The position numbers and the translations under genes are program-made. This document shows, piece after piece, positions 7,290-22,825 of a DNA stretch of 22,825 nucleotides; the first letter of the stretch is position 1; every line of letters begins with the position of its first letter. The notes below the pieces were generated by a model. That model was not told where the DNA came from. It did no database searches and saw only the letters and a program-made list of their open reading frames with translations. Source of the DNA: a virus; UHGV virus genome UHGV-0073937, one strand, 5' to 3'.

Positions 7290-7479
7290 ACTGCAGGCGC
7301 TGCGTCAGGCGCGCCTTGATTTATTAACCGGTAAACGGGTGGTGTCTGTCCAGAAAGATGGTCGCAGAATTGAATATACGGCTGCTTCTCTGGATGAGCT
7401 TAACCGGGCGATCAATGATGCGGAGTCGGTACTGGGGACAACCCGACGTCGCCGTCGTCCGCTGGGAGTGAGGTTATGA
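7273..7479 (+). CDS. W: Head-tail joining protein, lambda gpW-like
   Basis: 68 aa; LLTGKRVVSVQKDGRRIEYTAASL resembles lambda W; overlaps terL end and portal start as in lambda. Confidence 0.8.
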   Translation: MVTVAELQALRQARLDLLTGKRVVSVQKDGRRIEYTAASLDELNRAINDAESVLGTTRRRRRPLGVRL

Positions 7480-8348
7480 AACGAACGCCTGTCCTGATTG
7501 ATGTGAACGGTGTTCCGCTTCGTGAGAGTCTCAGCTACAACGGTGGCGGCGCAGGATTTGGCGGGCAAATGGCGGAGTGGTTGCCACCGGCGCAGAGTGC
7601 CGATGCGGCCCTGCTGCCCGCGTTGCGTCTGGGGAATGCCCGGGCAGATGATCTGGTGCGCAATAACGGAATAGCGGCTAATGCGGTTGCCCTGCATAAG
7701 GATCACATTGTCGGGCATATGTTTCTGATCAGCTACCGTCCGAACTGGCGCTGGCTGGGGATGCGGGAGACCGCAGCAAAAAGCTTTGTCGATGAGGTGG
7801 AGGCGGCCTGGTCGGAATACGCCGAAGGGATGTTTGGCGAGATCGACGTGGAAGGAAAACGCACGTTCACGGAATTTATCCGTGAAGGTGTGGGCGTTCA
7901 TGCGTTTAACGGCGAAATCTTTGTGCAGCCGGTCTGGGATACAGAAACCACGCAGTTATTCCGTACGCGTTTTAAAGCTGTGAGTCCGAAACGGGTGGAC
8001 ACGCCTGGACACGGTATGGGGAACCGTTTTCTGCGGGCCGGTGTGGAGGTCGATCGATATGGCCGTGCCGTCGCGTACCATATCTGTGAGGATGATTTTC
8101 CGTTCTCTGGTAGTGGACGATGGGAACGGATCCCGCGTGAACTTCCCACCGGGCGTCCGGCCATGCTGCATATTTTCGAGCCGGTGGAGGACGGGCAGAC
8201 CCGTGGGGCTAATCAGTTTTACAGCGTCATGGAACGGCTGAAGATGCTCGATTCCCTGCAGGCAACACAGCTTCAGTCGGCCATAGTGAAGGCGATTTAT
8301 GTCTATCATCTCACCGTAGTTGCCCGCATCGTTCGCCAACTCCACTGA
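7476..8348 (+). pseudogene. B: Portal protein (lambda gpB-like) N-terminal fragment, truncated by island insertion at ~8301
   Basis: First ~275 codons collinear with lambda gpB (GNARADDLVRNNG, FEPVEDGQTRGAN, QSAIVKA); after codon AIY the frame reads into unrelated sequence and stops at 8348. Confidence 0.85.
8289..8301. repeat. Left copy of 13-bp imperfect direct repeat (AAGGCGATTTATG) = putative att core (attL)
   Basis: Matches AAGGCGATGTATG at 18579-18591 (12/13); both copies lie exactly at the breakpoint in the portal reading frame. Confidence 0.65.
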
Positions 8349-10053: not shown

Positions 10054-10632
10054 ATGAATAAAAATATTGCCGTGACGGGCAAGGGGTACGCTCGTCCAGT
10101 GAAAAAATTCTGCGATATTCGTGATCTCGTCGTTCTGCGCTTTGATAGTGTGAACGTTCGTGTGGTGTATCTGAACGGCGATCCGTGGTTTGTTGCAAAA
10201 GATGTTTGTGCTGCGCTGGAACTAACCAATTCGCGTACGGCGTTGCAGATGCTTGATGATGATGAAAAGGGAGTAAATTTAACTTACACCCCAGGAGGAA
10301 ATCAGAATATGAGAATTATCTCTGAGTCAGGTTTCTACAAACTAATAGCCCGCAGCCGCAAAGCAACGACGCCTGGCACATTTGCTCATCGTTTCAGTAA
10401 CTGGGTATTCAGAAATGTGATACCAGGTATCAGAAAAACGGGGACTTATGGTATCCCGTGGGGTGCATTACAGGATTTTTCCCGCCGTAAAGAGCAATAT
10501 CAAATAAGTGCCAGCGAGAAGGGGAGAGAGCTACAGGCATGTAAGCGCAAAAAGCGTGAGCTGGAGGAAGAAGAAAAAACGCTGATACGTGAATATCAGC
10601 CTGAGTTTTACTTTGGTAACCGCATTCAGTGA
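10054..10632 (+). CDS. Bro-N domain protein (putative antirepressor-like)
   Basis: 192 aa; N-terminal region (VVYLNGDPWFVAKDVCAALELTNSRTALQMLDDDEKG...RIISESGFYKLIARSRKATT...FSNWVFRNVIP) typical of Bro-N; charged coiled C-terminus. Confidence 0.65.
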   Translation: MNKNIAVTGKGYARPVKKFCDIRDLVVLRFDSVNVRVVYLNGDPWFVAKDVCAALELTNSRTALQMLDDDEKGVNLTYTPGGNQNMRIISESGFYKLIARSRKATTPGTFAHRFSNWVFRNVIPGIRKTGTYGIPWGALQDFSRRKEQYQISASEKGRELQACKRKKRELEEEEKTLIREYQPEFYFGNRIQ

Positions 10633-10661
10633 CAAAACAAAGGCGACCGGGGGCGGTCGCC
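10630..10661 (-). terminator. Hairpin terminator for leftward small-gene operon (GGCGACCG-GGGG-CGGTCGCC; T-rich on minus strand)
   Basis: 8-bp perfect GC-rich stem; minus-strand downstream sequence TTTGTTTTGTC; sits between convergent genes. Confidence 0.55.
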
Positions 10662-10725
10662 AGTGGGAAAACACTAAACATAAGCACGAGGATGATAGCC
10701 GCTATCAGGTTGGTGGGCAATGTGA

Positions 10726-10935
10726 TCAGCCTGGTGGGCGGTTCCTGTTAGCTTTCATTACCCGGGGCTGTTTATTGAGAAACTCATCAAGCGCAAATTT
10801 TGTAGGCGCTGGTTCTGTATTTGGTGGCATTTGTTTAGCGTGTGCCTTTTCTTTCTGGCGTGCAACAATGCTCTGTAAAAGCAATCTTCGTTGTTCTGCG
10901 AAAATCTCTTCAGTGGATAGGTATTTTTTGCTCAT
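10726..10935 (-). CDS. Hypothetical small protein (leftward switch operon, second gene)
   Basis: 69-aa ORF downstream of 10993..11172 on same strand, followed by hairpin terminator. Confidence 0.45.
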   Translation of the reverse strand: MSKKYLSTEEIFAEQRRLLLQSIVARQKEKAHAKQMPPNTEPAPTKFALDEFLNKQPRVMKANRNRPPG

Positions 10936-10992
10936 AGTGCCGACCTGTAAAGCAATGCGCCGGAGTACCTCACACCACAGCGCTGATAGTGA

Positions 10993-11172
10993 TTATTCTT
11001 GCTCTTTAGCCTTGCGTCGCTGGCGGTATTCAACTTCTCGCTTTAATGCTGCTGTTACAAACTGCCCTGTACTTTCACCAGGCATTTTTACCGCCTCAAC
11101 ATTGTTCATAACTTCATGCGGAACCCTTGCCGCAACTGTTTGTGATTTTGCGTTTACTGCTTTTGTCGCCAT
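10993..11172 (-). CDS. Small putative DNA-binding regulator (possible RHH-type repressor), first gene of leftward operon
   Basis: 59-aa ORF derived by manual translation (below ORF-track size cut-off): MATKAVNAKSQTVAARVPHEVMNNVEAVKMPGESTGQFVTAALKREVEYRQRRKAKEQE; diverges from operator repeats. Confidence 0.45.
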   Translation of the reverse strand: MATKAVNAKSQTVAARVPHEVMNNVEAVKMPGESTGQFVTAALKREVEYRQRRKAKEQE

Positions 11173-11222
11173 GTTGTGTACCCCTCACAAAAAACAAATG
11201 CAGTATGCAGGAAAAAAAACAA

Positions 11223-11274
11223 GTGTTCAACACTTGACGTGTTCAACACCTGGGTTTAAATTGGTGTTCAACAC
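11223..11274. promoter_or_regulatory. Operator/promoter region: three perfect copies of near-palindromic 11-mer GTGTTCAACAC with candidate rightward sigma70 promoter
   Basis: Copies at 11223-11233, 11239-11249, 11264-11274; TTGACG (11234-11239) and TTTAAAT (11255-11261) fit -35/-10 with ~16-nt spacer; lies between divergent operons. Confidence 0.65.
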
Positions 11275-11371
11275 CTTGTTGGTGCAAGGTGCAGAAACGA
11301 CGAAACCCGGCAGTGCGCTAACACTAACCGGGCTTCTAACCACCAACGATAGCAACAGTATCGAGGTAGCT

Positions 11372-11575
11372 ATGAGAAATCATACCACACACCCGCAAGG
11401 GCGGGGCTCGCACAACCTGAATAAATACATCTGGCGTTTTATCGCCCTGAGCACCGCACAACCACGCGTAATACACATCGAGGCCGCCAGCGAACAGGAA
11501 GCCCGGCTGCAATCCCCAACTGGCTGCGTGATGATATTCGCCGCCCGTATTCGTCAGGAGGTATGCCGTGCTTAA
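11372..11575 (+). CDS. Small protein, first gene of rightward operon (possibly Icd-like)
   Basis: 67 aa from ATG 11372 with SD GAGG; MRNHTTHPQGRGSHNLNKYIWRFIALSTAQPRVIHIEAASEQEARLQSPTGCVMIFAARIRQE; family assignment from memory only. Confidence 0.45.
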   Translation: MRNHTTHPQGRGSHNLNKYIWRFIALSTAQPRVIHIEAASEQEARLQSPTGCVMIFAARIRQEVCRA

Positions 11576-11753
11576 AACCTTTCGTGTATTTGCTCGTGCG
11601 GTTAACCCACTAGGCCACACAATTGGTATCGCTCAGAACGTGAAGGCTGTTAATGTTCAGACGGCTATTGCTGCGGTGAGAAGCGAATCATCAGAATATG
11701 GCTTATCACAAGTCATTATCTCAGCAGTGTATGAATTAAAAGAGGTGCATTAA
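11568..11753 (+). CDS. Hypothetical protein
   Basis: 61-aa ORF; start overlaps upstream stop (coupled), part of tightly packed operon. Confidence 0.4.
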   Translation: MLKTFRVFARAVNPLGHTIGIAQNVKAVNVQTAIAAVRSESSEYGLSQVIISAVYELKEVH

Positions 11754-11944
11754 TGCAGGAAATTACATTACACGAAGCCGCTGAACGTGCGCACCAGACA
11801 GAAATTGTTTGCCGCCTTCTTGAGTTATACCCGAACAAAATTACAGATGCTGATATATCCGCGCTGGCGAGCCTACTGGCGCGCCTTTCGGGAAGTGTCG
11901 CTAGTTTCCTGATTGAGGAAGAAAGTAAGCTGGTGGGGGATTAA
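11753..11944 (+). CDS. Hypothetical protein
   Basis: 63-aa ORF; ATG overlaps previous stop (TAATG). Confidence 0.4.
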   Translation: MQEITLHEAAERAHQTEIVCRLLELYPNKITDADISALASLLARLSGSVASFLIEEESKLVGD

Positions 11945-12166
11945 ATGAATACAGAACGAGAAGTCTTTTTTAAATTGTTAGCATGTGCAGAGAGTTCATT
12001 AACTTTAAATAATTCAGCAAAAGCAATATTAAATATGTGGCTTGATTGCATAAATGACAATGAAGATGCAAATATTGCTTATGGCCTGTTGTCACTTATT
12101 GATGAAGCAGCAGAGAAACTTAATGACACAATAAATAGTGCCCTGCTATCAAATAAGTCGAGTTAA
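11945..12166 (+). CDS. Hypothetical protein
   Basis: 73-aa ORF; start overlaps previous stop; AT-rich codon usage suggests separate origin. Confidence 0.4.
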   Translation: MNTEREVFFKLLACAESSLTLNNSAKAILNMWLDCINDNEDANIAYGLLSLIDEAAEKLNDTINSALLSNKSS

Positions 12167-12183
12167 GTCGAAGAATAAATAAT

Positions 12184-12483
12184 ATGGAAATGAAAAATTC
12201 TGGCTTTATTGCCAGCGGCCCCGCTCGGCCTGAATTTATGAACGGCGATATTTACCGCGATAAATACGGCGGCACGGTAACGATTAAAGGCGTGGCAGAA
12301 CGGCGCATCACTTACCGCCGTGAGGGGTATAGCTATGACTGCGTGATGCCTGTTTATCAGTTCCGGCGTGATTTTTCCCTGGTATATGCCGCACCCCGCA
12401 GTAAGCCCATCAGCAGGGAAAAAGCGCGGGGAAACATCCAGAAAATGAAAAGCATGATTAACGCATTCAGGGGCAAAAAATGA
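12184..12483 (+). CDS. Hypothetical protein
   Basis: 99-aa ORF; stop overlaps start of replication protein (ATGA). Confidence 0.45.
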   Translation: MEMKNSGFIASGPARPEFMNGDIYRDKYGGTVTIKGVAERRITYRREGYSYDCVMPVYQFRRDFSLVYAAPRSKPISREKARGNIQKMKSMINAFRGKK

Positions 12484-14231
12484 AACTGGCACCGAACTTA
12501 AAAAAACAGCCACGCGACAGACTGACAGAGGTAATCATCTTTGCAGGTAGTGATGCGTGGAGCCATGCGAAAGAGTGGCAGGAATGGGCGGGTAAACATA
12601 TTGCCGCCGACGATGTGCCGCCTGTCGTGCTGGCTGATGAGCAACTGAAAAACATCACCGATTACCGGATCATTGATGAAGATCGTCAGTGTGTGCGTGT
12701 TTACCGCGCAGGACATATCACAGAGCACAGCATGACGCAGATTGTTACGTTACTGGCTGTGGCTGGAGTGAAGACCGTACACGAATACGCGGGGATTACT
12801 GACACCAGCCCAGTGGATTTATCCGACCAGTTGCCGCGACTCAAAGAGGAATGCGAGCGTGGGGAAAGTCTGGTGCTTAATCTTCCGACGAAGCAAAAGG
12901 CGCAACTTTCACAGATGGCAGACAGTGAACGTGCACAACTACTTGCCGATCGCTTTGATGGTGTGTGTGTTCATGCAGAAAGTGAAATCGTCCACGTATG
13001 GCGCGGCGGGGTATGGTGTCCGGTCAGCACAATGGAGCTGAGCCGCGAAATGGTGGCGATCTATTCAGAGCACAGGGCCACGTTCAGCAAACGTGTAATC
13101 AATAACGCCGTGGAAGCGTTAAAAGTTATTGCCGACCCCATGGGGGAGCCGTCCAGTGATTTGCTACCGTTCACTAATGGTGTGCTTAACCTGAAAACGG
13201 GAGAATTTTCTCCGCACTCGCCGGAGCACTGGAGCACCACGCACAATGGCATTGAGTACACGCCACCAGTAGCAGGGGAAAACATCCGCGATAATGCGCC
13301 AAATTTCCATAAATGGCTTGAACATGCTGCAGGAAAAGACCCGCGCAAGATGATGCGTATATGTGCCGCGTTATACATGATTATGGCGAACCGCTACGAC
13401 TGGCAGATGTTCATTGAGGCCACCGGAGACGGGGGAAGCGGAAAGAGCACATTTACCCATATTGCCACCCTGCTTGCTGGCAAACAGAACACCGTAAGCG
13501 CAGAGATGACATCACTCGATGATGCAGGTGGGCGCGCGCAGGTTGTCGGGAGTCGTCTTATCGTCCTTGCCGATCAGCCGAAATATACGGGTGAAGGCAC
13601 TGGCATCAAGAAAATCACGGGAGGCGATCCCGTCGAAATTAACCCGAAATATGAGAAGCGATTCACGACGATAATAAGGGCGGTGGTACTGGCGACCAAT
13701 AACGACCCTATGATCTTTACCGAACGGGCCGGAGGTGTGTCACGCCGTCGGGTGATTTTCCGGTTCGACAACATTGTAAGGGAGGACGAAAAAGACAAGG
13801 AATTACCGGAAAAGATAGCGGCAGAAATCCCCGTAATTATCCGCCGCTTGCTGGCTAACTTTGCTGACCCTGAAAAGGCACGAGCTTTACTACTGGAACA
13901 GCGAGACGGTGATGAAGCTCTGGCAATAAAGCAGCAAACGGATCCGGTTGTTGAGCTTTGCGCGGCGCTGGAGTTTCTGGAGGAAGCTCGTGGGCTAATG
14001 ATGGGCGGTGGTGGTGACTCCGTGAAGTACACGACCAGAAACAGCCTTTACCGTGTCTATATGGCCTTCATGGCATACACAGGAAAGGGGAAATGTTTGA
14101 GCGTGAATGAGTTCGGAAAGGCTATGAGGTCAGCGGCGAAAGTTTACGGATATGAATATATTACTCGAAAAGTTAAGGGAGTCACGCAGACCAACGCAAC
14201 GACTACTGATGATTGCGATGCGTTTTTATAA
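12480..14231 (+). CDS. Replication protein: primase C-terminal/D5-N domain with SF3-type P-loop NTPase (pri-rep-like)
   Basis: 583 aa; Walker A GDGGSGKST, downstream Walker B-like RLIVLADQ; architecture typical of P4-alpha/PICI pri-rep proteins; followed by iterons. Confidence 0.8.
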   Translation: MKLAPNLKKQPRDRLTEVIIFAGSDAWSHAKEWQEWAGKHIAADDVPPVVLADEQLKNITDYRIIDEDRQCVRVYRAGHITEHSMTQIVTLLAVAGVKTVHEYAGITDTSPVDLSDQLPRLKEECERGESLVLNLPTKQKAQLSQMADSERAQLLADRFDGVCVHAESEIVHVWRGGVWCPVSTMELSREMVAIYSEHRATFSKRVINNAVEALKVIADPMGEPSSDLLPFTNGVLNLKTGEFSPHSPEHWSTTHNGIEYTPPVAGENIRDNAPNFHKWLEHAAGKDPRKMMRICAALYMIMANRYDWQMFIEATGDGGSGKSTFTHIATLLAGKQNTVSAEMTSLDDAGGRAQVVGSRLIVLADQPKYTGEGTGIKKITGGDPVEINPKYEKRFTTIIRAVVLATNNDPMIFTERAGGVSRRRVIFRFDNIVREDEKDKELPEKIAAEIPVIIRRLLANFADPEKARALLLEQRDGDEALAIKQQTDPVVELCAALEFLEEARGLMMGGGGDSVKYTTRNSLYRVYMAFMAYTGKGKCLSVNEFGKAMRSAAKVYGYEYITRKVKGVTQTNATTTDDCDAFL

Positions 14232-14239
14232 AAAATGGC

Positions 14240-14480
14240 AATGGTTATCTACCTTGTCTACCTGACTGAAAGAAAATACTTTTATTTCAATGTATTAATG
14301 CAGGTAGATAACTATTTTTCACTGTCTACCTGTTATCTACCTTATCTACCCATTTTTGTAGACAGGTAAGGAGACGGGTAGAGATGAGGTAGACAGCTAT
14401 TTGGGGCTGTCTACCTCCCTGAAACCCGCGCCATTACTGGCCTGATAACTAATCAGGTAGACAAGGTAGACAAGGTGGTG
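14240..14480. repeat. Iteron array (>=10 copies of GGTAGACA / TATCTACC in both orientations) = putative origin of replication
   Basis: e.g. TTATCTACCTTGTCTACC, CAGGTAGATAAC, CTGTCTACCTGTTATCTACCTTATCTACC, GGTAGACAAGGTAGACAAGG; non-coding, directly downstream of rep gene. Confidence 0.75.
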
Positions 14481-14520
14481 GCGCACAAAAAACTTTTTAA
14501 ACGAGGGGGTAAAAATAAAA

Positions 14521-14778
14521 ATGCACACATCAGGAAAACTGAACAAACATATAAAGCCACATTATCGCGCCCTTGATATGGCTGAACACTGGCTAAGGGT
14601 GGCGATTAAGGCAATAGACCGCAACGCCGGGGAAGGATACGCGAAAGCACATCCCGAACTGATAAGCGCATTCATGACAACGGCGGCTGCAAACTTTGCC
14701 GCGCTGACCGAACGGGAGATTGCCGAAGCGGAGGAAGTGACAACCATCAATATTAAGTCCGGAGAGCAGGCAGCTTGA
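14521..14778 (+). CDS. Hypothetical protein
   Basis: 85-aa ORF; stop overlaps SSB start. Confidence 0.45.
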   Translation: MHTSGKLNKHIKPHYRALDMAEHWLRVAIKAIDRNAGEGYAKAHPELISAFMTTAAANFAALTEREIAEAEEVTTINIKSGEQAA

Positions 14779-15224
14779 CGGCGCAAATAGCAGCTTACGG
14801 GCGGCTGGTGGACGACCCACAGGTAAAACATACCAGCAAGGGAGCACCCATGACACTGGCACGGATGACGGTATCTTTGCCATGCAGCCAGGCAGATGAC
14901 GGAACGGCGACGATGTGGTTATCTGTCCTGGCGTTTGGCAGACAAGCCGACGCGCTGGCAAAGCATCACAAAGGCGAACTCCTGAGCGTGGCGGGTAATA
15001 TGCAGGTGAGCCAGTGGAGCGGACAGAACGGGGAAACGCGGCAGGGCTGGCAGGTTATCGCAGACAGCGTAATCAGTGCCAGAACGGTGCGACCGGGCGG
15101 CAAAAAAGGTCAACAGGGGCAGGCTACTGATGCACTGAACAGAGCAAAACAACAGGCAGATCAGCAAGGAAGCCATCCACCAGTGGGAGATAATGAGCAA
15201 TGGGGAGATGATATTCCGTTTTAA
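14775..15224 (+). CDS. ssb: Single-stranded DNA-binding protein homologue (SSB-like, TTG start)
   Basis: 149 aa; OB-fold-like N-terminus; Gln/Gly-rich linker; C-terminal acidic tip GDDIPF matching the SSB DDDIPF tail; SD GGAGAG 8 nt upstream of TTG. Confidence 0.75.
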   Translation: MTAQIAAYGRLVDDPQVKHTSKGAPMTLARMTVSLPCSQADDGTATMWLSVLAFGRQADALAKHHKGELLSVAGNMQVSQWSGQNGETRQGWQVIADSVISARTVRPGGKKGQQGQATDALNRAKQQADQQGSHPPVGDNEQWGDDIPF

Positions 15225-15243
15225 ATTCTGCAAACAAAAAGAT

Positions 15244-15268
15244 GCCGGAAAAAAATAGATTTTCCGGC
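15244..15268. terminator. Hairpin (GCCGGAAAA...TTTTCCGGC), possible terminator after ssb
   Basis: 9-bp inverted repeat; T-run better on minus strand so orientation ambiguous. Confidence 0.4.
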
Positions 15269-15435
15269 ATGCTACATAAATCCCGACCAAAGGAAGTAAA
15301 TACATTAACACGAATTATCAGCACTGAAGTTGTCACGGCATATTTTATACAACATTGCACTTGGTTGCATGTATTCGCATAGCAGACATCGGTAATAGAA
15401 TATATTCACAATTATTTGTAATGAATGTAAAGAGG

Positions 15436-16482
15436 ATGAGTATGGTTGATTTATATTCGCCTACACAGCTTGTGCAGGTGGCTAATGCTGAAGATGTGCA
15501 AAAAAAATTAAATGCGTTGTTTACCAGTTTGTTTTTCACTCGCTCGGTAATGTTTGAATCGAGAGACATTATTCTTGATACGATCGACGATCCAAATATC
15601 CCGATCGCGGCGTTTTGCTCTCCTATGGTGGGCAGTAAAGTTTCACGAGATGAGGGATACGAATCAAAAACAATTCGCCCTGGCTATATGAAACCGAAAA
15701 GCAGCATTGATCCAAATAAGTTAGCTGTGCGCCCTGCTGGTGTATCACCTGAACAATACAATGCTTTTGGGGCGCGTAATATTAAAGTTAAACAGGCGAT
15801 TGTAAATCAGGCTAAAGCTATACGTGCACGTATTGAATGGCTTGCTGTTCAGGCAATCACAACGGGGAAAAATATCATTGAGGGCGATGGTATTGAACGT
15901 TATGAACTGGACTGGAATATAAAACCACAAAATATTATCACGCAGTCTGGCGGTGCTGAGTGGTCAGGTAAGGATAAAGAAACTTTTGATCCAAATGATG
16001 ATATTGAGAGCTACGCAGAATTTAGTGAGGGCGTCACTAATATCATCATTATGGGCGGTAATGTATGGAAGAAATACCGTTCATTCAGAGCGATAAAAGA
16101 GGCTCTGGATACCCGCCGTGGTTCTAATTCCGAACTGGAAACGGCCCTTAAAGACCTTGGTGATTCGGTGAGTTTTAAAGGGTATATGGGCGATGTTGCG
16201 ATTGTTGTTTACAGCGGACGTTATACCGACGAGGACGGAACTGAAAAACATTTCCTTGATCCTGATTTGATGGTGCTTGGCAATACGGCTCTTCAGGGGA
16301 TTGTCGCCTATGGCGGTATTCAGGATCCGGAGCTAATCCGAATGGGGCTGACTAAAGCCGAACTTGCACCGAAAAACTATATTGTGCCTGGTGATCCGGC
16401 TATTGAATATGTGCAGACACATTCAGCACCACAGCCAATACCGGCCCGCATCAATCGTTTTGTTACCGTTCGCATTGGCTAA
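15436..16482 (+). CDS. Major capsid protein, divergent lambda gpE homologue (island-encoded)
   Basis: 348 aa; collinear similarity with lambda E across C-terminal two-thirds (NIITQSGGAEWSGKDKETFDPNDDIE, DTRRGSNSELETALKDLG, YMGDVAIVVYSG, LMVLGNTA, VPGDPAIE); start MSMVDLY parallels lambda MSMYTTA; start could be 15442. Confidence 0.85.
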   Translation: MSMVDLYSPTQLVQVANAEDVQKKLNALFTSLFFTRSVMFESRDIILDTIDDPNIPIAAFCSPMVGSKVSRDEGYESKTIRPGYMKPKSSIDPNKLAVRPAGVSPEQYNAFGARNIKVKQAIVNQAKAIRARIEWLAVQAITTGKNIIEGDGIERYELDWNIKPQNIITQSGGAEWSGKDKETFDPNDDIESYAEFSEGVTNIIIMGGNVWKKYRSFRAIKEALDTRRGSNSELETALKDLGDSVSFKGYMGDVAIVVYSGRYTDEDGTEKHFLDPDLMVLGNTALQGIVAYGGIQDPELIRMGLTKAELAPKNYIVPGDPAIEYVQTHSAPQPIPARINRFVTVRIG

Positions 16483-16491
16483 GGGGGAGCA

Positions 16492-16833
16492 ATGGCTACT
16501 CATTACACTGAACTCATGGCTGGCACTGAAGCACTGGTGACTACGCTGGGGATATTTTCAGCTAATAAAGGGGTAATTCCTGCATTTACGCCACTGATGC
16601 AGGAAGATGCAACAGGTGCACTGGTGGTATGGGATGGTTCGAGCGTAGGTAAAGCGGTTTATGTTTCCGCTGTACAAATCGACACAGCGAAAAAAACACA
16701 GGCACAGGTTTATAAGACAGGTGTTTTAAATGTTGATGCTCTGAACTGGCCTGAGTCTGTAAAAGAACTGTCGGCAAAGGTTGCCGCGTTTGTTGGCTCA
16801 GGTATTTCTGTTCAGCCGCTGGCTCGTGTGTAA
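16492..16833 (+). CDS. Head decoration protein, divergent lambda gpD homologue (island-encoded)
   Basis: 113 aa; VVWDGSSVGKAVYVSAVQIDT...YKTGVLNVDALNWPES parallels lambda [22 protein letters not shown]...[16 protein letters not shown]; strong SD AAGGGGGAG. Confidence 0.75.
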   Translation: MATHYTELMAGTEALVTTLGIFSANKGVIPAFTPLMQEDATGALVVWDGSSVGKAVYVSAVQIDTAKKTQAQVYKTGVLNVDALNWPESVKELSAKVAAFVGSGISVQPLARV

Positions 16834-16844
16834 AGGGGGATACA

Positions 16845-17228
16845 ATGCAGAATCATTACAATGACCTTAAGCCAATTGCCGAAATGATGTATCCGGATCC
16901 AGCAGTAGAGGAATTAAAGGCTATTGCTGACAAAATGCGTTTAAGTGAACGCCTTGTTGATATGAATCAGGTGATGGAACTTACTACCCTTAGCCGTCGC
17001 ACATTGCTAAACCTTGAGGCTCGCGGAGAGTTCCCCGAACGCGTACAGGTTACGGAAGGGCGTAAGGCCTGGTATTTAAGTGAAGTGATCGACTGGATAA
17101 ACAATATTCCTCGATCTTCTGAATATTGCCGCGTACCTGTCCCAAAAAAGCCAGATGCGGCGCTATGCCTCAAGATTGAGCGTGTACGTCGCAATGCACG
17201 GGATGGTCGCTATAAGTTGATTGGTTGA
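16845..17228 (+). CDS. AlpA-like HTH domain protein immediately upstream of island cos
   Basis: 127 aa; central HTH resembling AlpA/HTH_17 (MNQVMELTTLSRRTLLNLEARGEFPERVQVTEGRKAWYLSEVIDWI); strong SD. Confidence 0.55.
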   Translation: MQNHYNDLKPIAEMMYPDPAVEELKAIADKMRLSERLVDMNQVMELTTLSRRTLLNLEARGEFPERVQVTEGRKAWYLSEVIDWINNIPRSSEYCRVPVPKKPDAALCLKIERVRRNARDGRYKLIG

Positions 17229-17254
17229 TGAAATTAGGGCCCGTTCTGGCTGGC

Positions 17255-17330
17255 GGGTCCTTTCCGGCGATCCGGTAGGCTACGGGGCGGCGACCTTGCG
17301 GGTTTTCGCTATTTATGAGCCTTTTTCGGG
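17255..17330 (+). other. cos: Lambda-type cos site 2 (island cos): cosN GGGCGGCGACCT at 17285-17296
   Basis: ~65 bp (17255-17319) near-identical to 4625-4688 including cosQ/cosN; downstream cosB-equivalent sequence differs from cos 1. Confidence 0.8.
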
Positions 17331-17429
17331 TGCTGGTGGTGGTTTTGTTGTTCGCTCTATCTCTATGAATAAAAAGGAAAAGATAAAGCCAATACACCAA
17401 CCTGAAACATTACTTAAGTGGGGATATTG

Positions 17430-17972
17430 ATGAAATCGCACCTGATGAACAAAAAAAACATGGCGCAAAGCTGCCGTGTAAGTGCGACAGCGTTCGACAA
17501 GTGGGGAGTGACTCCCGTTGAACGTAAAGGCCGCGAGGCGTTTTATGATGTTGCCAGCGTAATAGACAATCGGGTTAGCAATGCAATTAACCAGATTACA
17601 GACGACAAAGGCGAGATTGATGATGATGAACTCCTACGAGTCAGGATCAGATTGCTGACAGCACAGGCAGAGGCGCAGGAGCTTAAAAACGAGCGCGAAC
17701 GCGGCGACGTTATTGATACAGCGTTTTGTATATACGTGCTTTCAAAATTGGCGAGTCAGATTTCTTCAATCATGGACAGCCTGCCGCTTGCCATGACAAG
17801 GAAGTTTCCCGACATGAAGCCGTCTATGCTGGATGGACTGAAAAAAGAAGTTATCAGAGCCTGTAACGCATGCGCAAAACTTGACGAAAACATACCGCTG
17901 ATGCTGTCCGATTATCTGATGGAAACTGCCGGAAACGTACCGGATAAGTTGCAGCCGAATAAAGATAAGTAA
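17430..17972 (+). CDS. Terminase small subunit, divergent Nu1-like (island-encoded)
   Basis: 180 aa from ATG 17430; homologous to 4883..5389 product and lambda Nu1 (ATAFDKWGVTPVERKGREAFYDV; AFCIYVLSKLASQISSIMDSLPLAMTRKFPDM) but clearly divergent. Confidence 0.85.
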   Translation: MKSHLMNKKNMAQSCRVSATAFDKWGVTPVERKGREAFYDVASVIDNRVSNAINQITDDKGEIDDDELLRVRIRLLTAQAEAQELKNERERGDVIDTAFCIYVLSKLASQISSIMDSLPLAMTRKFPDMKPSMLDGLKKEVIRACNACAKLDENIPLMLSDYLMETAGNVPDKLQPNKDK

Positions 17973-17983
17973 CGTAGTACGCT

Positions 17984-18286
17984 ATGACTGAATCCGAAAT
18001 ACTGCGATTAATCCGCCGTGCTTGTGGAATCAGCAAGCAGCATGACGAACAGGCCACGCAGCCGGACAGCGTGACCGCAGATAATTATGTGCGTGTAGTG
18101 GCTGAGGTGATGCGCCGTGACGGTATTGAGCTTAACGGCGTGGATATGCGCAACATACGAACAAGAGTCCTTGAGTTGCTGGCATATCGTCGCCGTAATG
18201 ATGATTCAGCCCACCAGCCAAATCAGCACAGCAACGACAGAATAGCCCGACACAGAAAAACCACGAATATGGGGTTTTTGTTATGA
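17984..18286 (+). CDS. Hypothetical protein (last island gene)
   Basis: 100-aa ORF; Arg-rich; no recognised motif. Confidence 0.4.
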   Translation: MTESEILRLIRRACGISKQHDEQATQPDSVTADNYVRVVAEVMRRDGIELNGVDMRNIRTRVLELLAYRRRNDDSAHQPNQHSNDRIARHRKTTNMGFLL

Positions 18287-18482
18287 CATGGTCATGATGA
18301 CCACTCATACAAAACAGGTAAAGCCCACCAGCCTGATTAAAGGTTAACCGGAAAAAAGCCAGGTATCCAATCTCGATATGGGGATCCCTATATCGACATT
18401 AACGCCCACTAAAACTGTGCATATATGCATAGAAAAAGCATCCACCAGCTTTATGACGGATGCCGCTCATCTTATAAATAAT

Positions 18483-18506
18483 CGTGTATTGCAGTGTGTA
18501 TTGCGA
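18483..18506. repeat. Two copies of GTGTATTGCA-type repeat near right island end (candidate arm sites)
   Basis: CGTGTATTGCAGTGTGTATTGCGA; same motif as 8425-8478. Confidence 0.5.
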
Positions 18507-18578
18507 CTCCTTTAAACGATAGGTCTGAGCATTCGTAATGTACTGTTTTTAAATTTTATTTTTTCCTGTCTTTTCATA

Positions 18579-18591
18579 AAGGCGATGTATG
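18579..18591. repeat. Right copy of 13-bp direct repeat (AAGGCGATGTATG) = putative att core (attR)
   Basis: 12/13 match to 8289-8301; portal reading frame (KAMYAATIESEL) resumes exactly here. Confidence 0.65.
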
Positions 18592-19336
18592 CCGCCACCA
18601 TTGAGAGTGAGCTGGATACGCAGTCAGCGATGGATTTTATTCTGGGCGCGAACAGTCAGGAGCAGCGGGAAAGGCTGACCGGCTGGATTGGTGAAATTGC
18701 CGCGTATTACGCCGCAGCACCGGTCCGGCTGGGAGGCGCAAAAGTGCCGCACCTGATGCCGGGTGACTCACTGAACCTGCAGGCTACTCCGTGTTTGAGC
18801 AGTCACTGCTGCGGTATATCGCTGCCGGGCTGGGTGTCTCGTATGAGCAGCTTTCCCGGAATTACGCCCAGATGAGCTACTCCACGGCACGGGCCAGCGC
18901 GAACGAGTCGTGGGCGCACTTTATGGGGCGGCGAAAATTCGTCGCATCCCGTCAGGCGAGTCAGATGTTTCTGTGCTGGCTGGAAGAGGCCATCGTTCGC
19001 CGCGTGGTGACGTTACCTTCAAAAGCGCGCTTCAGTTTTCAGGAAGCCCGTAGTGCCTGGGGGAACTGCGACTGGATAGGCTCCGGTCGTATGGCCATCG
19101 ATGGTCTGAAAGAAGTTCAGGAAGCGGTGATGCTGATAGAAGCCGGACTGAGCACCTACGAGAAAGAGTGCGCGAAACGCGGTGACGACTATCAGGAAAT
19201 TTTTGCCCAGCAGGTCCGTGAAACGATGGAGCGCCGCGCGGCTGGTCTTAAACCGCCCGCCTGGGCGGCTGAGGCATTTGAATCCGGGCTGCGACAATCA
19301 ACAGAGGAGGAGAAGAGTGACAGCAGAGCTGCGTAA
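18579..19336 (+). pseudogene. B: Portal protein (lambda gpB) C-terminal fragment, additionally frameshifted near 18767-18790
   Basis: MYAATIESELDTQSAMDFILGANSQEQRERLTGWIGEIAAYY... then frame change; second frame continues VFEQSLLRYIAAGLGVSYEQL... to the overlap with C; matches lambda gpB C-terminus. Confidence 0.85.
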
Positions 19337-20636
19337 TCTCCCGCATATTGCCAGCATGGCCTTTAATGAGCCGCTGATGCTTGAACCCGCCTATGCGCGG
19401 GTTTTCTTTTGTGCACTTGCAGGCCAGCTTGGGATCAGCCGCCTGACGGATGCGGTGTCCGGTGACAGCCTGGCTGCCGGAGAGGCACCCGCGACGCTGG
19501 CGTTATCCGGTGATGATGACGGACCACGACAGGCCCGCAGTTATCAGGTCATGAACGGCATCGCCGTGCTGCCGGTGTCCGGCACGCTGGTCAGCCGGAC
19601 GCGGGCGCTGCAGCCGTATTCGGGGATGACCGGTTACAACGGCATTATCGCCCGTCTGCAACAGGCTGCCAGCGATCCGATGGTGGACGGCATTCTGCTC
19701 GATATGGACACGCCAGGCGGAATGGTGGCGGGAGCATTTGACTGCGCTGACATCATCGCCCGTGTGCGTGACATAAAACCGGTATGGGCGCTGGCCAACG
19801 ACATGAACTGCAGTGCAGGTCAGCTGCTTGCCAGTGCTGCCTCCCGGCGTCTGGTCACGCAGACCGCCCGGACAGGCTCCATCGGCGTCATGATGGCTCA
19901 CAGTAATTACGGTGCTGCGCTGGAGAAACAGGGTGTGGAAATCACGCTGATTTACAGCGGCAGCCATAAGGTGGATGGCAACCCCTACAGCCATCTTCCG
20001 GATGACGTCCGGGAGACACTGCAGTCCCGGATGGATGCAACCCGCCAGATGTTTGCGCAGAAGGTGTCGGCATATACCGGCCTGTCTGTGCAGGCTGTGC
20101 TGGATACCGAGGCTGCAGTGTACAGCGGTCAGGAGGCCATTGATGCCGGACTGGCTGATGAACTTGTTAACAGCACCGATGCGATCACCGTCATGCGTGA
20201 TGCACTGGATGCACGTAAATCCCGTCTCTCAGGAGGGCGAATGACCAAAGAGACTCAATCAACAACGGTTTCAGCTACTGCCTCGCAGGCTGACATCACC
20301 ACCGTGGTGCAAGCGACGGAGGGCGAGAACGCCAGCGCGGCGCAGCCGGACGTGAACGCGCAGATCACCGCAGCGGTTGCGGCAGAAAACAGCCGCATTA
20401 TGGGGATCCTCAACTGTGAGGAGGCTCACGGACGCGAAGAACAGGCACGCGTGCTGGCAGAAACCCCCGGAATGACCGTGGAAACGGCCCGTCGCATTCT
20501 GGCCGCAGCACCACAGAGTGCACAGGCGCGCAGTGATACTGCGCTGGATCGTCTGATGCAGGGTGCACCGGCACCGCTTGCTGCAGGTAACCCGGCATCA
20601 GATGCCGTTAACGATTTGCTGAACACACCAGTGTAA
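19317..20636 (+). CDS. C: Lambda gpC (minor capsid protein C; S49-family prohead protease)
   Basis: 439 aa from GTG 19317; near-identical to lambda C as recalled (MTAELRNLPHIASMAFNEPLMLEPAYARVFF...). Confidence 0.95.
   Translation: MTAELRNLPHIASMAFNEPLMLEPAYARVFFCALAGQLGISRLTDAVSGDSLAAGEAPATLALSGDDDGPRQARSYQVMNGIAVLPVSGTLVSRTRALQPYSGMTGYNGIIARLQQAASDPMVDGILLDMDTPGGMVAGAFDCADIIARVRDIKPVWALANDMNCSAGQLLASAASRRLVTQTARTGSIGVMMAHSNYGAALEKQGVEITLIYSGSHKVDGNPYSHLPDDVRETLQSRMDATRQMFAQKVSAYTGLSVQAVLDTEAAVYSGQEAIDAGLADELVNSTDAITVMRDALDARKSRLSGGRMTKETQSTTVSATASQADITTVVQATEGENASAAQPDVNAQITAAVAAENSRIMGILNCEEAHGREEQARVLAETPGMTVETARRILAAAPQSAQARSDTALDRLMQGAPAPLAAGNPASDAVNDLLNTPV
20031..20636 (+). CDS. Nu3: Lambda Nu3 scaffolding protein (in-frame internal start within C)
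   Basis: In-frame ATG at 20031, 714 nt into C, same stop; placement inferred from lambda gene organisation. Confidence 0.7.
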   Translation: MDATRQMFAQKVSAYTGLSVQAVLDTEAAVYSGQEAIDAGLADELVNSTDAITVMRDALDARKSRLSGGRMTKETQSTTVSATASQADITTVVQATEGENASAAQPDVNAQITAAVAAENSRIMGILNCEEAHGREEQARVLAETPGMTVETARRILAAAPQSAQARSDTALDRLMQGAPAPLAAGNPASDAVNDLLNTPV

Positions 20637-20645
20637 GGGATGTTT

Positions 20646-20978
20646 ATGACGAGCAAAGAAACCTTTACCCATTACCAGCCGCTGGGCAACAGTGACCCGG
20701 CTCATACCGCAACCGCGCCCGGCGGATTGAGTGCGACAGCGCCTGCAATGACCCCGCTGATGCTGGACACCTCCACCCGTAAGCTGGTTGCATGGGATGG
20801 CACCACCGACGGTGCTGCTGTTGGCATTCTGGCGGTTGCTGCTGACCAGACCAGCACCGCGCTGACGTTCTACAAGTCCGGCACGTTCCGTTATGAGGAT
20901 GTGCTCTGGCCGGAGGCTGCCAGCGACGAGACGAAAAAACGGACCGCGTTTGCCGGAACGGCAATCAGCATCGTTTAA
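20646..20978 (+). CDS. D: Lambda gpD head decoration protein
   Basis: 110 aa [27 protein letters not shown]... near-identical to lambda D. Confidence 0.95.
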
Positions 20979-20996
20979 CCTTACCCTTCATCACTA

Positions 20997-21021
20997 AAGG
21001 CCGCCTGTGCGGCTTTTTTTA
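20997..21021 (+). terminator. Hairpin + T-run between D and E (GGCCGC-CTGT-GCGGC + T7)
   Basis: GC stem followed by TTTTTTT; may act as attenuating terminator or RNA stability element. Confidence 0.5.
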
Positions 21022-21033
21022 CGGGATTTTTTT

Positions 21034-22059
21034 ATGTCGATGTACACAACCGCCCAGCTGCTGGCGGCAAATGAGCAGAAATTTAAGTTTGATCCGCTGT
21101 TTCTGCGTCTCTTTTTCCGTGAGAGCTATCCCTTCACCACGGAGAAAGTCTATCTCTCACAAATTCCGGGACTGGTAAACATGGCGCTGTACGTTTCGCC
21201 GATTGTTTCCGGTGAGGTTATCCGCTCCCGTGGCGGCTCCACCTCTGAATTTACGCCGGGATATGTCAAACCCAAGCATGAAGTGAATCCGCAGATGACC
21301 CTGCGTCGCCTGCCGGATGAAGATCCGCAGAATCTGGCGGACCCGGCTTACCGCCGCCGTCGCATCATTATGCAGAACATGCGTGACGAAGAGCTGGCCA
21401 TTGCCCAGGTCGAAGAGATGCAGGCAGTTTCTGCCGTGCTTAAGGGCAAATACACCATGACCGGTGAAGCCTTCGATCCGGTTGAGGTGGATATGGGCCG
21501 CAGTGCGGCGAATAACATCACGCAGTCCGGCGGCACGGAGTGGAGCAAGCGTGACAAGTCCACGTATGACCCGACCGACGATATCGAAGCCTACGCGCTG
21601 AACGCCAGCGGTGTGGTGAATATCATCGTGTTTGATCCGAAAGGCTGGGCGCTGTTCCGTTCCTTCAAAGCCGTCAAGGAGAAGCTGGATACCCGTCGTG
21701 GCTCTAATTCCGAGCTGGAGACAGCGGTGAAAGACCTGGGTAAAGCGGTGTCCTATAAGGGGATGTATGGCGATGTTGCCATCGTCGTGTATTCCGGACA
21801 GTACGTGGAAAACGGTGTCAAAAAGAACTTCCTGCCGGACAACACGATGGTGCTGGGGAACACTCAGGCACGCGGTCTGCGTACCTATGGCTGTATTCAG
21901 GATGCGGACGCACAGCGCGAAGGCATTAACGCCTCTGCCCGTTACCCGAAAAACTGGGTGACCACCGGCGATCCGGCGCGTGAGTTCACCATGATTCAGT
22001 CAGCACCGCTGATGCTGCTGGCTGACCCTGATGAGTTCGTGTCCGTACAACTGGCGTAA
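21034..22059 (+). CDS. E: Lambda gpE major capsid protein
   Basis: 341 aa MSMYTTAQLLAANEQKFKFDPLFLRLFFRESYPF... near-identical to lambda E. Confidence 0.95.
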   Translation: MSMYTTAQLLAANEQKFKFDPLFLRLFFRESYPFTTEKVYLSQIPGLVNMALYVSPIVSGEVIRSRGGSTSEFTPGYVKPKHEVNPQMTLRRLPDEDPQNLADPAYRRRRIIMQNMRDEELAIAQVEEMQAVSAVLKGKYTMTGEAFDPVEVDMGRSAANNITQSGGTEWSKRDKSTYDPTDDIEAYALNASGVVNIIVFDPKGWALFRSFKAVKEKLDTRRGSNSELETAVKDLGKAVSYKGMYGDVAIVVYSGQYVENGVKKNFLPDNTMVLGNTQARGLRTYGCIQDADAQREGINASARYPKNWVTTGDPAREFTMIQSAPLMLLADPDEFVSVQLA

Positions 22060-22061
22060 TC

Positions 22062-22086
22062 ATGGCCCTTCGGGGCCATTTTCTCT
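22062..22086 (+). terminator. Hairpin after E (ATGGCCC-TTCG-GGGCCAT + T-rich)
   Basis: 7-bp perfect stem with TTCG loop followed by TTTCTCTC. Confidence 0.45.
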
Positions 22087-22100
22087 CTGTGGAGGAGTCC

Positions 22101-22499
22101 ATGACGAAAGATGAACTGATTGCCCGCCTCCGCTCGTTGGGTGAGCAACTGAACCGTGATGTCAGCCTGACGGGGACGAAAGAAGAACTGGCGCTCCGTG
22201 TGGCAGAGCTGGAAGAGGAGCTTGATGACACGGATGACACTGCCGGTCAGGACACCCCTCTCAGCCCGGAAAATGTGCTGACCGGGCATGAAAATGAGGC
22301 TGTATCAGCGCAGCCGGATACCGTGATTCAGGATGCGGCTGATCTGGTCACCGTTGTGGCACTGGTGACGCTGCATACTGATGCACTTCACGCCATCCGG
22401 GATGAACCTGTGGCATTTGTGATGCCGGGAACGGCGTTCCGTGTCTCTGCCGGTGTGGCAACCGAAATGACAGAACGCGGCCTGGCCAGAATGCAATAA
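22101..22499 (+). CDS. FI: Lambda gpFI (DNA packaging / head assembly protein)
   Basis: 132 aa MTKDELIARLRSLGEQLNRDVSLTGTKEELALRVAELEEELDD... matches lambda FI; SD GGAGGA. Confidence 0.9.
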   Translation: MTKDELIARLRSLGEQLNRDVSLTGTKEELALRVAELEEELDDTDDTAGQDTPLSPENVLTGHENEAVSAQPDTVIQDAADLVTVVALVTLHTDALHAIRDEPVAFVMPGTAFRVSAGVATEMTERGLARMQ

Positions 22500-22510
22500 C
22501 GGGAGGCGCT

Positions 22511-22825
22511 GTGGCTGATTTCGATAACCTGTTCGATGCTGCCATTGCCCGCGCCGATGAAACGATACGCGGGTACATGGGAACGTCAGCCACCATTACA
22601 TCCGGTGAGCAGTCCGGTGCTGTGATACGTGGTGTTTTTGATGACCCTGAAAATATCAGCTATGCCGGACAGGGCGTGCGCGTTGAAGGTTCCAGCCCGT
22701 CCCTGTTTGTCCGGACTGATGAGGTACGGCAGCTGCGGCGCGGCGACACGCTGACCATCGGTGAGGAAAACTTCTGGGTAGACCGGGTTTCGCCGGATGA
22801 TGGCGGAAGCTGTCATCTCTGGCTT
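22511..22825 (+). CDS. FII: Lambda gpFII (head-tail joining), 3'-partial at window edge
   Basis: Begins VADFDNLFDAAIARADETIRGYMGTSATITSGEQSGAVIRGVFDDPENISYAG... (GTG start at 22511); runs off the window. Confidence 0.85.
   Translation, partial: MADFDNLFDAAIARADETIRGYMGTSATITSGEQSGAVIRGVFDDPENISYAGQGVRVEGSSPSLFVRTDEVRQLRRGDTLTIGEENFWVDRVSPDDGGSCHLWL

What the first reader, a model, noticed from the sequence alone, without database searches (positions are those of the whole stretch)
18579..19336. The resumed portal fragment is itself frameshifted (~18767-18790)
After the island, the portal sequence reads correctly through ...HLMPGDSLNLQ and then runs into nonsense (ATPCLSSHCCG...) and a stop. 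A second frame carries the continuing portal sequence (GYSVFEQSLLRYIAAGLG...) up to the overlap with C. Comparison with the lambda gpB sequence as I recall it suggests a ~22-bp deletion removing about seven codons. So even precise island excision would not restore an intact portal, suggesting a defective prophage, a sequencing error, or relaxed selection once the island had inactivated B.
Basis: partly seen in the sequence, partly recalled or inferred. Interest (0 to 1): 0.55.

Follow-up and report, generated by a model that had tools for sequence, protein, structure and literature searches.

The report
Private 22-bp deletion in portal gene
The second half of a lambda-type prophage portal gene, already split by a known kind of phage satellite, lacks 22 bases that every relative has, so the gene is dead in this contig: an ordinary one-off lesion, or an assembly error in a thinly covered metagenome contig, not a new mechanism.

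Summary
Between window 18782 and 18783, exactly 22 bp (ACGGCTCAGGATACGGATAACG) are missing that lambda B and all relatives examined carry. The reading frame shifts, 30 nonsense codons follow, and a stop falls at 18873-18875. The rest of the portal continues in another frame to 19336.

The deletion is private. It is absent from 5,426 complete E. coli genomes, including all 59 that carry the same island at the same junction. It is also absent from 122 of 122 surveyed relatives, from GTDB representatives, IMG/VR and JGI metagenomes. Its 96-aa product is a singleton among about 15 billion proteins.

The "island" is a published element: a helper-embedded PICI at site B:Phage_portal_2:241 (Tommasini et al. 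2023). Its insertion is reversible and does not normally lead to portal decay.

The window is one whole metaSPAdes-style contig with k-mer coverage 3.56, so an artefact cannot be excluded. However, 8.3 kb of flanking alignment contains no other indel.

One finding is new here. The two portal halves belong to different lambdoid lineages (about 60% protein identity), so excision would give a chimeric gene even without the deletion.

Verdict: most likely a real, recent, inactivating deletion in a defective helper. Low interest.

The parts
7476..8296 (+). Portal gene, N-terminal fragment ('type 2' lambdoid portal, not lambda type). The ORF reads through attL into the island for 17 unrelated codons and stops at 8346-8348.
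   Evidence: Translation. Pfam Phage_portal_2 profile positions 2-242. 99.4% identity with zero gaps to the island-free prophage of E. coli Z247 over 4300-8301, but only ~66-68% to lambda B. The 290-aa read-through product is seen on 100 contigs.
8289..8301 (+). attL core AAGGCGATTTATG (identity block AAGGCGAT at 8289-8296).
   Evidence: The same block 'aaggcgat' is listed for group B_Phage_portal_2_241 in the supplement of PMC10111431.
8297..18586 (+). Helper-embedded PICI, 10,290 bp. Gene order: integrase, AlpA, Bro-N, small ORFs, DUF4222, D5/DUF5906 primase, SSB, E-like major capsid, decoration protein, AlpA-like HTH, Nu1-like TerS. [quoted passage not shown]
   Evidence: Precomputed Pfam hits on the called genes. 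Annotation of homologous islands in Ch1, N921 and EC28. Junctions. Literature.
18579..18591 (+). attR core AAGGCGATGTATG.
   Evidence: The attR flank is identical to the published B_Phage_portal_2_241 attR alignment.
18579..18782 (+). Portal C-terminal fragment, part 1 (lambda type), in the frame that would continue the N-terminal fragment after excision: KAMYAAT...PGDSLNLQ.
   Evidence: Pfam profile positions 236-298.
18782..18783 (+). Breakpoint of the 22-bp deletion (ACGGCTCAGGATACGGATAACG missing). There is 1 nt of microhomology (G).
18783..18875 (+). Out-of-frame tail: 30 nonsense codons plus the TGA stop at 18873-18875.
18782..19336 (+). Portal C-terminal fragment, part 2 (GYSVFEQ...SDSRAA, stop 19334-19336). 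It lies in the -1 frame relative to part 1.
   Evidence: Pfam profile positions 308-354. There is no other gap against lambda through 22825.
19317..20636 (+). Gene C (S49 protease/scaffold), intact. It overlaps the end of B by 20 nt, as in lambda.

Best explanation
The window holds the head-gene region of a lambdoid prophage. Its portal gene (the lambda B cognate) is split by a helper-embedded PICI, integrated by its tyrosine integrase at the published site B:Phage_portal_2:241 (core AAGGCGAT). In such composites the portal gene is normally restored when the satellite excises.

In this contig the attR-side fragment has also suffered a real, recent deletion of 22 bp, 196 bp downstream of the core. 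No other sequence examined carries it. It removes a motif conserved across portal lineages (LQ-TAQDTDN-G) and shifts the frame. Excision would therefore yield a 369-codon truncated portal instead of about 530 aa.

The two portal halves also come from different lambdoid lineages: type 2 on the left, lambda type on the right. Together these make the prophage a defective helper that cannot make its own portal. The satellite, whose genes all look intact, would be stranded until another helper arrives.

Shown: the deletion, its uniqueness, the att sites, the identity of the island, and the hybrid flanks. Inferred: that the deletion exists in the organism rather than only in the assembly, that it is recent, and that it is simply loss of function.
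For: - **Exact 22-nt gap.** It is seen against lambda and against island-bearing Ch1. It is the only gap in 4,269 aligned columns against lambda.
- **Base-level quality looks good.** The left arm 4300-8301 has zero gaps over 4,002 bp against Z247, so the assembly is not generally indel-prone.
- **No repeat that would explain a shortcut.** The undeleted sequence has only short repeats here (ACGGCT twice). The observed junction does not match a collapse between them, which would remove 19 nt (reading). A de Bruijn graph shortcut is therefore unlikely. That last step rests on my knowledge of assemblers.
- **Repair restores the gene.** Re-inserting the 22 nt gives an open frame, and C, D, E and FI are intact.
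- **Recent event.** The fragment differs from its closest relative by 2 synonymous and 1 non-synonymous codon, with one private substitution.
- **The deleted motif is conserved.** Two portal types that are only ~60% identical both keep it, and it lies inside Pfam Phage_portal_2.
- **Island identity and att sites.**, with PMC10111431. That paper also notes that many HE-PICI helpers look truncated, leaving 'abandoned' satellites.
Against: - The contig is the only carrier. The junction is absent from 5,426 complete E. coli genomes, GTDB representatives (15), IMG/VR (16) and JGI metagenomes (18). The 96-aa product is a singleton cluster seen on one contig.
- The contig name gives a k-mer coverage of 3.56, so very few reads support any one position, and no reads could be inspected.
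- The hybrid left and right flanks could themselves signal a chimeric assembly. That would lower trust in the contig as a whole.
Confidence: 0.62

Rival explanations
1. The deletion is an artefact of a thinly covered short-read metagenome assembly. Possible sources are a chimeric or erroneous read, a gap closure, or a mis-join. The hybrid flanks may be part of the same problem: an assembler crossing from one HE-PICI-bearing prophage to another through the shared 10-kb island.
For: - The window is the whole contig NODE_417_length_22825_cov_3.56 of ENA assembly ERZ1745601.
- The deletion is found nowhere else.
- Microhomology at the junction is only 1 nt, which is not typical of replication slippage.
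- The excision-product junction implied by the contig exists in no complete E. coli genome.
- E. coli strain 48 carries the same HE-PICI in both helper types in one chromosome. This is exactly the repeat structure that can mislead a short-read assembler.
- 22 nt equals the step between SPAdes default k values. This is my own knowledge, I know of no documented artefact behind it, and it may be coincidence.
Against: - Short-read errors are mainly substitutions, and every k-mer of a de Bruijn contig normally comes from reads.
- There is no other indel in 8.3 kb of alignment to close relatives, and no other broken gene in the island or flanks.
- No 20-nt-plus repeat at the site could create a graph shortcut.
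Confidence: 0.28
2. This is long-term decay: once the island had interrupted B, selection on the fragments relaxed and the deletion is one symptom.
For: A split gene is not translated as a whole while the island stays in place. Tommasini et al. remark that many helpers of such satellites look truncated.
Against: - All 59 complete genomes with this island at a lambda-type attR keep the 22 bp, and 57 of them span exactly 1101+22 nt in one piece.
- 113 of 114 relatives have an open frame.
- The fragment itself has only one private substitution, and mostly synonymous differences.
- All neighbouring head genes are intact.
- Insertion of this class is reversible, 'regulated gene integrity'.
Confidence: 0.07
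3. The frameshift is functional. Either a programmed -1 ribosomal frameshift reads through it, or the C-terminal 181-aa ORF (18791-19336) is expressed on its own as a split portal.
For: The downstream frame is -1 relative to the upstream one, and an ORF with a GTG start exists.
Against: - Between the last upstream stop of the -1 frame (TGA, 18764-18766) and the frame-1 stop at 18873 there is no X XXY YYZ heptamer in the right register. The only run, TTTCCCG at 18852, is in the wrong frame (reading).
- A conserved 7-residue motif would still be missing.
- No relative has this arrangement.
Confidence: 0.01

Closest known systems
Helper-embedded PICIs, site group B:Phage_portal_2:241 (Tommasini, Mageeney & Williams 2023, NAR Genom Bioinform, PMC10111431)
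   Same: - The identity block is the same (aaggcgat), and the attR flank is identical to the published alignment.
- The insertion codon matches: the Pfam profile match ends at position 242.
- The gene order is the same: int-AlpA / Bro-N / primase / captured capsid, decoration and TerS genes.
- The orientation matches that of the late gene.
- Several genomes found here (CP011416, CP006834, CP028192) are listed in their table.
   Different: In this contig the attR-side portal fragment carries a private 22-bp frameshifting deletion. The two portal fragments also belong to different lambdoid lineages. The island is itself a sequence variant, ~91% identical with non-matching stretches at 10730-11535.
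Phage lambda portal protein gpB (Pfam PF05136, Phage_portal_2)
   Same: The fragment 18579-19336 is 95.5% identical in DNA to lambda 3658-4437 (the figure counts the 22 gap columns). It has the same 20-nt overlap with gene C.
   Different: It lacks lambda nucleotides encoding TAQDTDN plus 1 nt. The N-terminal half in the window is not lambda-like: ~66% DNA identity to lambda, and the two portal types are 59% identical in protein over that half.
EcCICFT073-type Gram-negative PICIs (Fillol-Salom et al. 2018, PMC6092414)
   Same: Unidirectional int-alpA-pri layout, with a capsid-protein homologue and a head-decoration homologue in the late region.
   Different: Classical PICIs sit at chromosomal att sites 'never used by prophages'. 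This one sits inside a prophage late gene.
Defective or cryptic lambdoid prophages of E. coli (e.g. Qin-like elements); 'abandoned' HE-PICIs
   Same: Single inactivating lesions in otherwise well-preserved late genes. The left part of the window matches, at 91.7% identity, the N921 stretch annotated rrrQ, rzpQ, cspI, ynfQ, ynfR, ynfN and gnsB (window 1048-3645).
   Different: Only 22.8 kb is available, so the state of the rest of the prophage is unknown.

Membership tests
HE-PICI, group B:Phage_portal_2:241 | Integrated inside a prophage late gene, at about codon 241 of the Phage_portal_2 profile of the lambda B cognate | tested here: met
   The N-terminal fragment matches profile positions 2-242 and ends at the att core. 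The portal resumes after the island.
HE-PICI, group B:Phage_portal_2:241 | attL and attR share the identity block AAGGCGAT, with the flanks as published | tested here: met
   attL is GTGAAGGCGAT|TTATGTC and attR is CATAAAGGCGAT|GTATGCC. The supplement lists 'aaggcgat' and an identical attR flank.
HE-PICI, group B:Phage_portal_2:241 | Tyrosine integrase followed by AlpA at the left end, with key genes in the same orientation as the interrupted late gene | tested here: met
   PF00589/PF13356 integrase, then PF05930 AlpA, all on the + strand like B.
HE-PICI, group B:Phage_portal_2:241 | Four zones: integration, Bro-N dynamic zone, replication (primase), and a late zone with captured helper late genes | tested here: met
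   Bro-N; D5_N/DUF5906 primase and SSB; Phage_cap_E, HDPD and Phage_Nu1. The island capsid, decoration and TerS proteins are 42, 38 and 46% identical to the helper's E, D and Nu1.
HE-PICI, group B:Phage_portal_2:241 | No replacement sequence for the target gene in attP, so the target is disrupted until excision | tested here: met
   The attL read-through adds IYVYHLTVVARIVRQLH and a stop. This is not portal sequence.
HE-PICI, group B:Phage_portal_2:241 | Integrase falls in the HE-PICI integrase clade by phylogeny | not tested
   No tree was built. Indirect support only: the first 351 bp of the island are 99.7% identical to islands of genomes resembling those the paper lists.
HE-PICI, group B:Phage_portal_2:241 | Excision restores a functional helper late gene (regulated gene integrity) | tested here: not met
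   The in-silico excision product is a 369-codon truncated ORF. The two halves are also non-cognate, and no such junction exists in 5,426 genomes.
Lambda-family portal protein (PF05136), intact gene | Continuous match to the whole Phage_portal_2 profile in one reading frame | tested here: not met
   The profile is covered in three pieces: 2-242, 236-298 and 308-354. The pieces lie in two frames, and positions ~299-307 are deleted.
Programmed -1 ribosomal frameshift | Slippery heptamer X XXY YYZ in register within the overlap of the two frames | tested here: not met
   Codon-by-codon reading of 18767-18875 finds none in register.

The most novel reading that the evidence does not exclude
The hybrid arrangement is real: a type-2 Nu1/A/W/portal-N half on the left, and a lambda-type portal-C half with C, D, E and FI on the right, switching exactly at the island. 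It would have been produced by recombination between two HE-PICI copies sitting in two different helper prophages of one cell, either homologous recombination across the 10-kb island or integrase-mediated attL x attR exchange. Helper-embedded satellites would then act as portable crossover points that reshuffle, and can kill, helper head modules and rearrange the chromosome. The 22-bp deletion would be decay that followed such an event.
Probability: 0.15. Interest if true: 0.4.

Novelty: new member of a known kind. Interest (0 to 1): 0.15.

Why it matters
It matters little beyond annotation. The practical lesson is that this locus should be annotated as a helper-embedded PICI (group B:Phage_portal_2:241) inside a lambdoid prophage whose portal gene is a pseudogene in this contig. 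It should not be read as evidence that satellite insertion drives portal decay.

If the deletion is real, this is a concrete example of a stranded satellite: its resident helper can no longer supply a portal, so the satellite depends on an incoming helper.

The hybrid flanks, if real, hint that such satellites can mediate recombination between different helper prophages. That would be worth a systematic look in complete genomes. Strain 48, with two copies in two helper types, shows that the substrate exists.

Tried and rejected
- **Natural length variant: rejected.** 122 of 122 relatives have a 22-nt spacer. Even the ~60%-identical type-2 portal keeps the motif.
- **Shared indel in island-free or island-bearing relatives: rejected**.
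- **Replication slippage between the two ACGGCT repeats: rejected.** It would delete 19 nt and leave CTGCAGACGGCTAC, which is not what is observed.
- **Contamination by laboratory lambda or a lambda vector: rejected.** The junction sits at a PstI-like CTGCAG, but the right arm is only ~97% identical to lambda.
- **Programmed frameshift or split portal: rejected** (see rival explanations).
- **Damage to the attR-side target as a systematic, possibly adaptive PICI trait (the idea discussed for tRNA targets in PMC10111431): rejected here.** 0 of 59 other islands show it, and the lesion lies 196 bp from the core.
- **Exact-pattern scans of IMG/VR and GTDB for the hypothetical excision junction.** I replaced them with a BLAST of a 140-nt constructed junction against complete E. 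coli genomes, which gave no match.
- **Literature searches.** Two searches on 'satellite + portal gene' gave nothing useful. The relevant paper came from a reference in PMC10085698. Searches were syntax errors.
I could not resolve this into independent evidence.

Full report
**1. The observation**

From 18579, frame 1 reads KAMYAATIESELDTQSAMDFILGANSQEQRERLTGWIGEIAAYYAAAPVRLGGAKVPHLMPGDSLNLQ. It then runs into ATPCLSSHCCGISLPGWVSRMSSFPGITPR and a stop at 18873-18875. The frame beginning at 18581 carries GYSVFEQSLLRYIAAGLGVSYEQLSRNYAQMSY... through to SDSRAA and a stop at 19334-19336.

I aligned the window with lambda (J02459) and with an island-bearing prophage of E. coli Ch1. The window lacks exactly 22 nt between 18782 and 18783: ACGGCTCAGGATACGGATAACG, with placement ambiguous by one G. 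On either side it is nearly identical to both. Re-inserting the 22 nt restores an open 780-nt reading frame.

**2. Is it a natural variant?**

No.
Together with lambda and Ch1, all 122 have a 22-nt spacer, in three sequence variants. Only the window has 0.
- Of 116 full-length BLAST matches to the fragment, 114 differ by this single 22-nt gap.
- After repair, 113 of 114 relatives have an open frame. One, L074, has its own 1-nt indel.
- A 70-nt query centred on the junction finds no single-piece match in 5,426 complete E. coli genomes.
- Exact-pattern scans of GTDB species representatives, IMG/VR and JGI metagenomes also find nothing.
- The 96-aa product of the frameshifted ORF is a singleton cluster seen on one contig among about 15 billion proteins.

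**3. Where the sequence comes from**

The same look-up shows that the window is one complete contig, NODE_417_length_22825_cov_3.56074, of ENA metagenome assembly ERZ1745601. The name format and coverage field indicate a SPAdes-type assembly at very low k-mer coverage. This is my reading of the name; no reads were available. It is the main reason an artefact cannot be excluded.

**4. What the 'island' is**

- **Gene content.** The 10,290 bp between the portal fragments (8297-18586) encode a tyrosine integrase, AlpA, a Bro-N protein, small ORFs, DUF4222, a D5/DUF5906 primase and SSB. A lambda-E-like major capsid protein, a decoration protein, a second AlpA-like regulator and a Nu1-like small terminase follow. 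All lie on the same strand as the portal (annotation of homologues).
- **Junctions.** attL is ...GTGAAGGCGAT|TTATGTCTATC and attR is ...TTTTCATAAAGGCGAT|GTATGCC. The uninterrupted target, GTGAAGGCGATGTATGC, is shared by two otherwise divergent portal types.
- **Insertion site.** Pfam places the end of the N-terminal fragment at position 242 of Phage_portal_2.
- **Published match.** This is the group B:Phage_portal_2:241 of 'helper-embedded PICIs' described by Tommasini, Mageeney and Williams (PMC10111431). Their supplementary table gives the identity block 'aaggcgat' and an attR flank identical to the window's. It lists several of the genomes I hit: CP011416, CP006834 and CP028192.
- **Consequence.** In that paper the insertion is described as reversible 'regulated gene integrity': the late gene is restored when the satellite excises. 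The authors note that many helpers look truncated, leaving 'abandoned' satellites.

**5. Does island insertion lead to portal decay?**

There is no sign of that.
- All 59 complete E. coli genomes that carry the island's right end joined to a lambda-type portal fragment keep the 22 bp. Fifty-seven of them span exactly 1101+22 nt in a single aligned piece.
- In the window, the repaired fragment differs from its closest relative (L016) by 2 synonymous and 1 non-synonymous codon. It differs from typical relatives by 6 synonymous and 2 non-synonymous.
- It has just one private substitution, Ala to Glu at window 19272.
- Downstream, C, D, E and FI are intact, and 18579-22825 aligns to lambda at 97% with the 22-nt gap as the only indel.

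The deletion is therefore a single, recent event (or an artefact), not the tip of a decay process.

**6. Severity**

The deleted residues (TAQDTDN plus the first base of the following Gly codon) sit inside the Pfam portal domain, between profile positions 298 and 308. They belong to a motif, LQTAQD(T/S)DNG, that is conserved between lambda B and a second portal type only ~60% identical overall. In-silico excision of the island gives a 369-codon ORF: 339 portal codons plus 30 nonsense codons. A full-length portal is 530-533 aa.

**7. An additional finding: the two portal halves are not cognate**

- **Left arm.** Window 4300-8301 (small and large terminase, W, portal N-half) is 99.4% identical, without a gap, to an island-free prophage of E. 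coli Z247. The left junction region (window 7300-8700) is 99.6% identical to island-bearing EC28. Both have a 'type 2' head module with a 501-aa S49 protease.
- **Right arm.** It is lambda type.
- **Switch point.** The switch maps exactly to the island.
- **No precedent in complete genomes.** In EC28, Ch1, N921 and both loci of strain 48, the flanks are cognate. No complete E. coli genome covers more than 73% of the window. A constructed 140-nt excision junction (type-2 left plus lambda-type right) matches nothing in 5,426 genomes.
- **A possible substrate.** E. coli strain 48 carries the same HE-PICI twice, once in each helper type, in the same orientation and 1.07 Mb apart. That could drive recombination across the island. 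It could equally cause a short-read assembler to cross from one prophage to the other.

I cannot tell which happened here.

**8. Real or artefact?**

For a real deletion:
- The contig is otherwise clean at base level, with one indel in about 8.3 kb aligned to close relatives and no other broken gene.
- There is no long repeat at the site that could create a graph shortcut.
- The observed junction is not the product of collapsing the short ACGGCT repeat.
- Short-read errors are rarely 22-nt deletions (general knowledge).

For an artefact:
- Coverage is very low, and there is a single carrier worldwide in the collections searched.
- Microhomology is only 1 nt.
- The hybrid structure is suspicious.
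- 22 nt equals the step between SPAdes default k values. I know of no documented mechanism behind this coincidence.

I put a real deletion at about 0.6-0.7 and an artefact at about 0.3.

**9. Functional readings**

A programmed -1 frameshift would need a slippery heptamer in register between 18767 and 18875. There is none, and the conserved motif would still be missing. A separately expressed C-terminal ORF has no parallel in any relative. Both readings are rejected.

**10. Verdict**

The surrounding system is already described in the literature. The lesion is an ordinary private pseudogenising deletion, or an assembly error. Interest is low. The only mildly novel lead is the hybrid helper flanking the satellite.

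Noticed in passing
window 4300-8296 versus 18587-22825: The two flanks of the island belong to different lambdoid head-module lineages, and the switch falls exactly at the island. The left flank is type 2, 99.4% identical to E. coli Z247. The right flank is lambda type, 97% identical to lambda. No complete E. coli genome has this combination or the corresponding excision junction. The cause is either recombination across the satellite or a chimeric assembly.
   Followed up: partly
L128 (NZ_CP166879.1 2.77-2.80 Mb) and L129 (1.71-1.74 Mb): E. coli strain 48 carries the same HE-PICI (identical integrase, Bro, RepA-type helicase, capsid and other proteins) in two different helper prophages of one chromosome. 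One helper is type 2 and one is lambda type, each with cognate portal halves. The lambda-type helper also has a frameshifted tape-measure gene.
   Followed up: partly
window 17255-17403 and 4625-4773: A 149-bp stretch just upstream of the island's Nu1-like terS is 78.5% identical to the prophage region upstream of its own Nu1 gene, the position of cos in lambda. The satellite therefore appears to carry a cos-like site.
   Followed up: partly
window 15442-16482, 16492-16833, 17430-17972: The island's own major capsid, decoration and small-terminase proteins are only 42%, 38% and 46% identical to the flanking prophage's E, D and Nu1. They are old captures or come from a different source, not recent copies of this helper.
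   Followed up: no
window 10730-11535, 12585-12867, 14290-14560, 15160-15185: The island is a sequence variant of those in N921, EC28 and Ch1, at ~91% identity. Some stretches have no match at all (the dynamic zone after Bro-N). The region before and inside the SSB gene is indel-rich, including a 26-nt insertion.
   Followed up: no
window 7476-8348: The attL read-through ORF is 290 aa: the portal N-half plus 17 island-encoded codons. It occurs with exactly this sequence on 100 contigs from NCBI, JGI, Logan and ENA. Type-2 helpers carrying this satellite are therefore common outside the complete-genome set, where only 3 were found.
   Followed up: no
L074 (IMGVR_UViG_2526164663_000017): This is the only other relative of 114 with a disrupted portal C-terminal region. 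It carries an independent 1-nt indel.
   Followed up: no
window 1-4700: Upstream of the packaging genes, window 1048-3645 matches at 91.7% identity the N921 stretch annotated rrrQ, rzpQ, cspI, ynfQ, ynfR, ynfN and gnsB, with a 35-nt insertion at 3507. Window 4293-4695 matches the ynfO region.
   Followed up: no
window 18777-18783: The deletion's left edge coincides with a CTGCAG (PstI) site. Its length, 22 nt, equals the increment between SPAdes default k-mer sizes. Both are probably coincidences, and neither could be tested.
   Followed up: no
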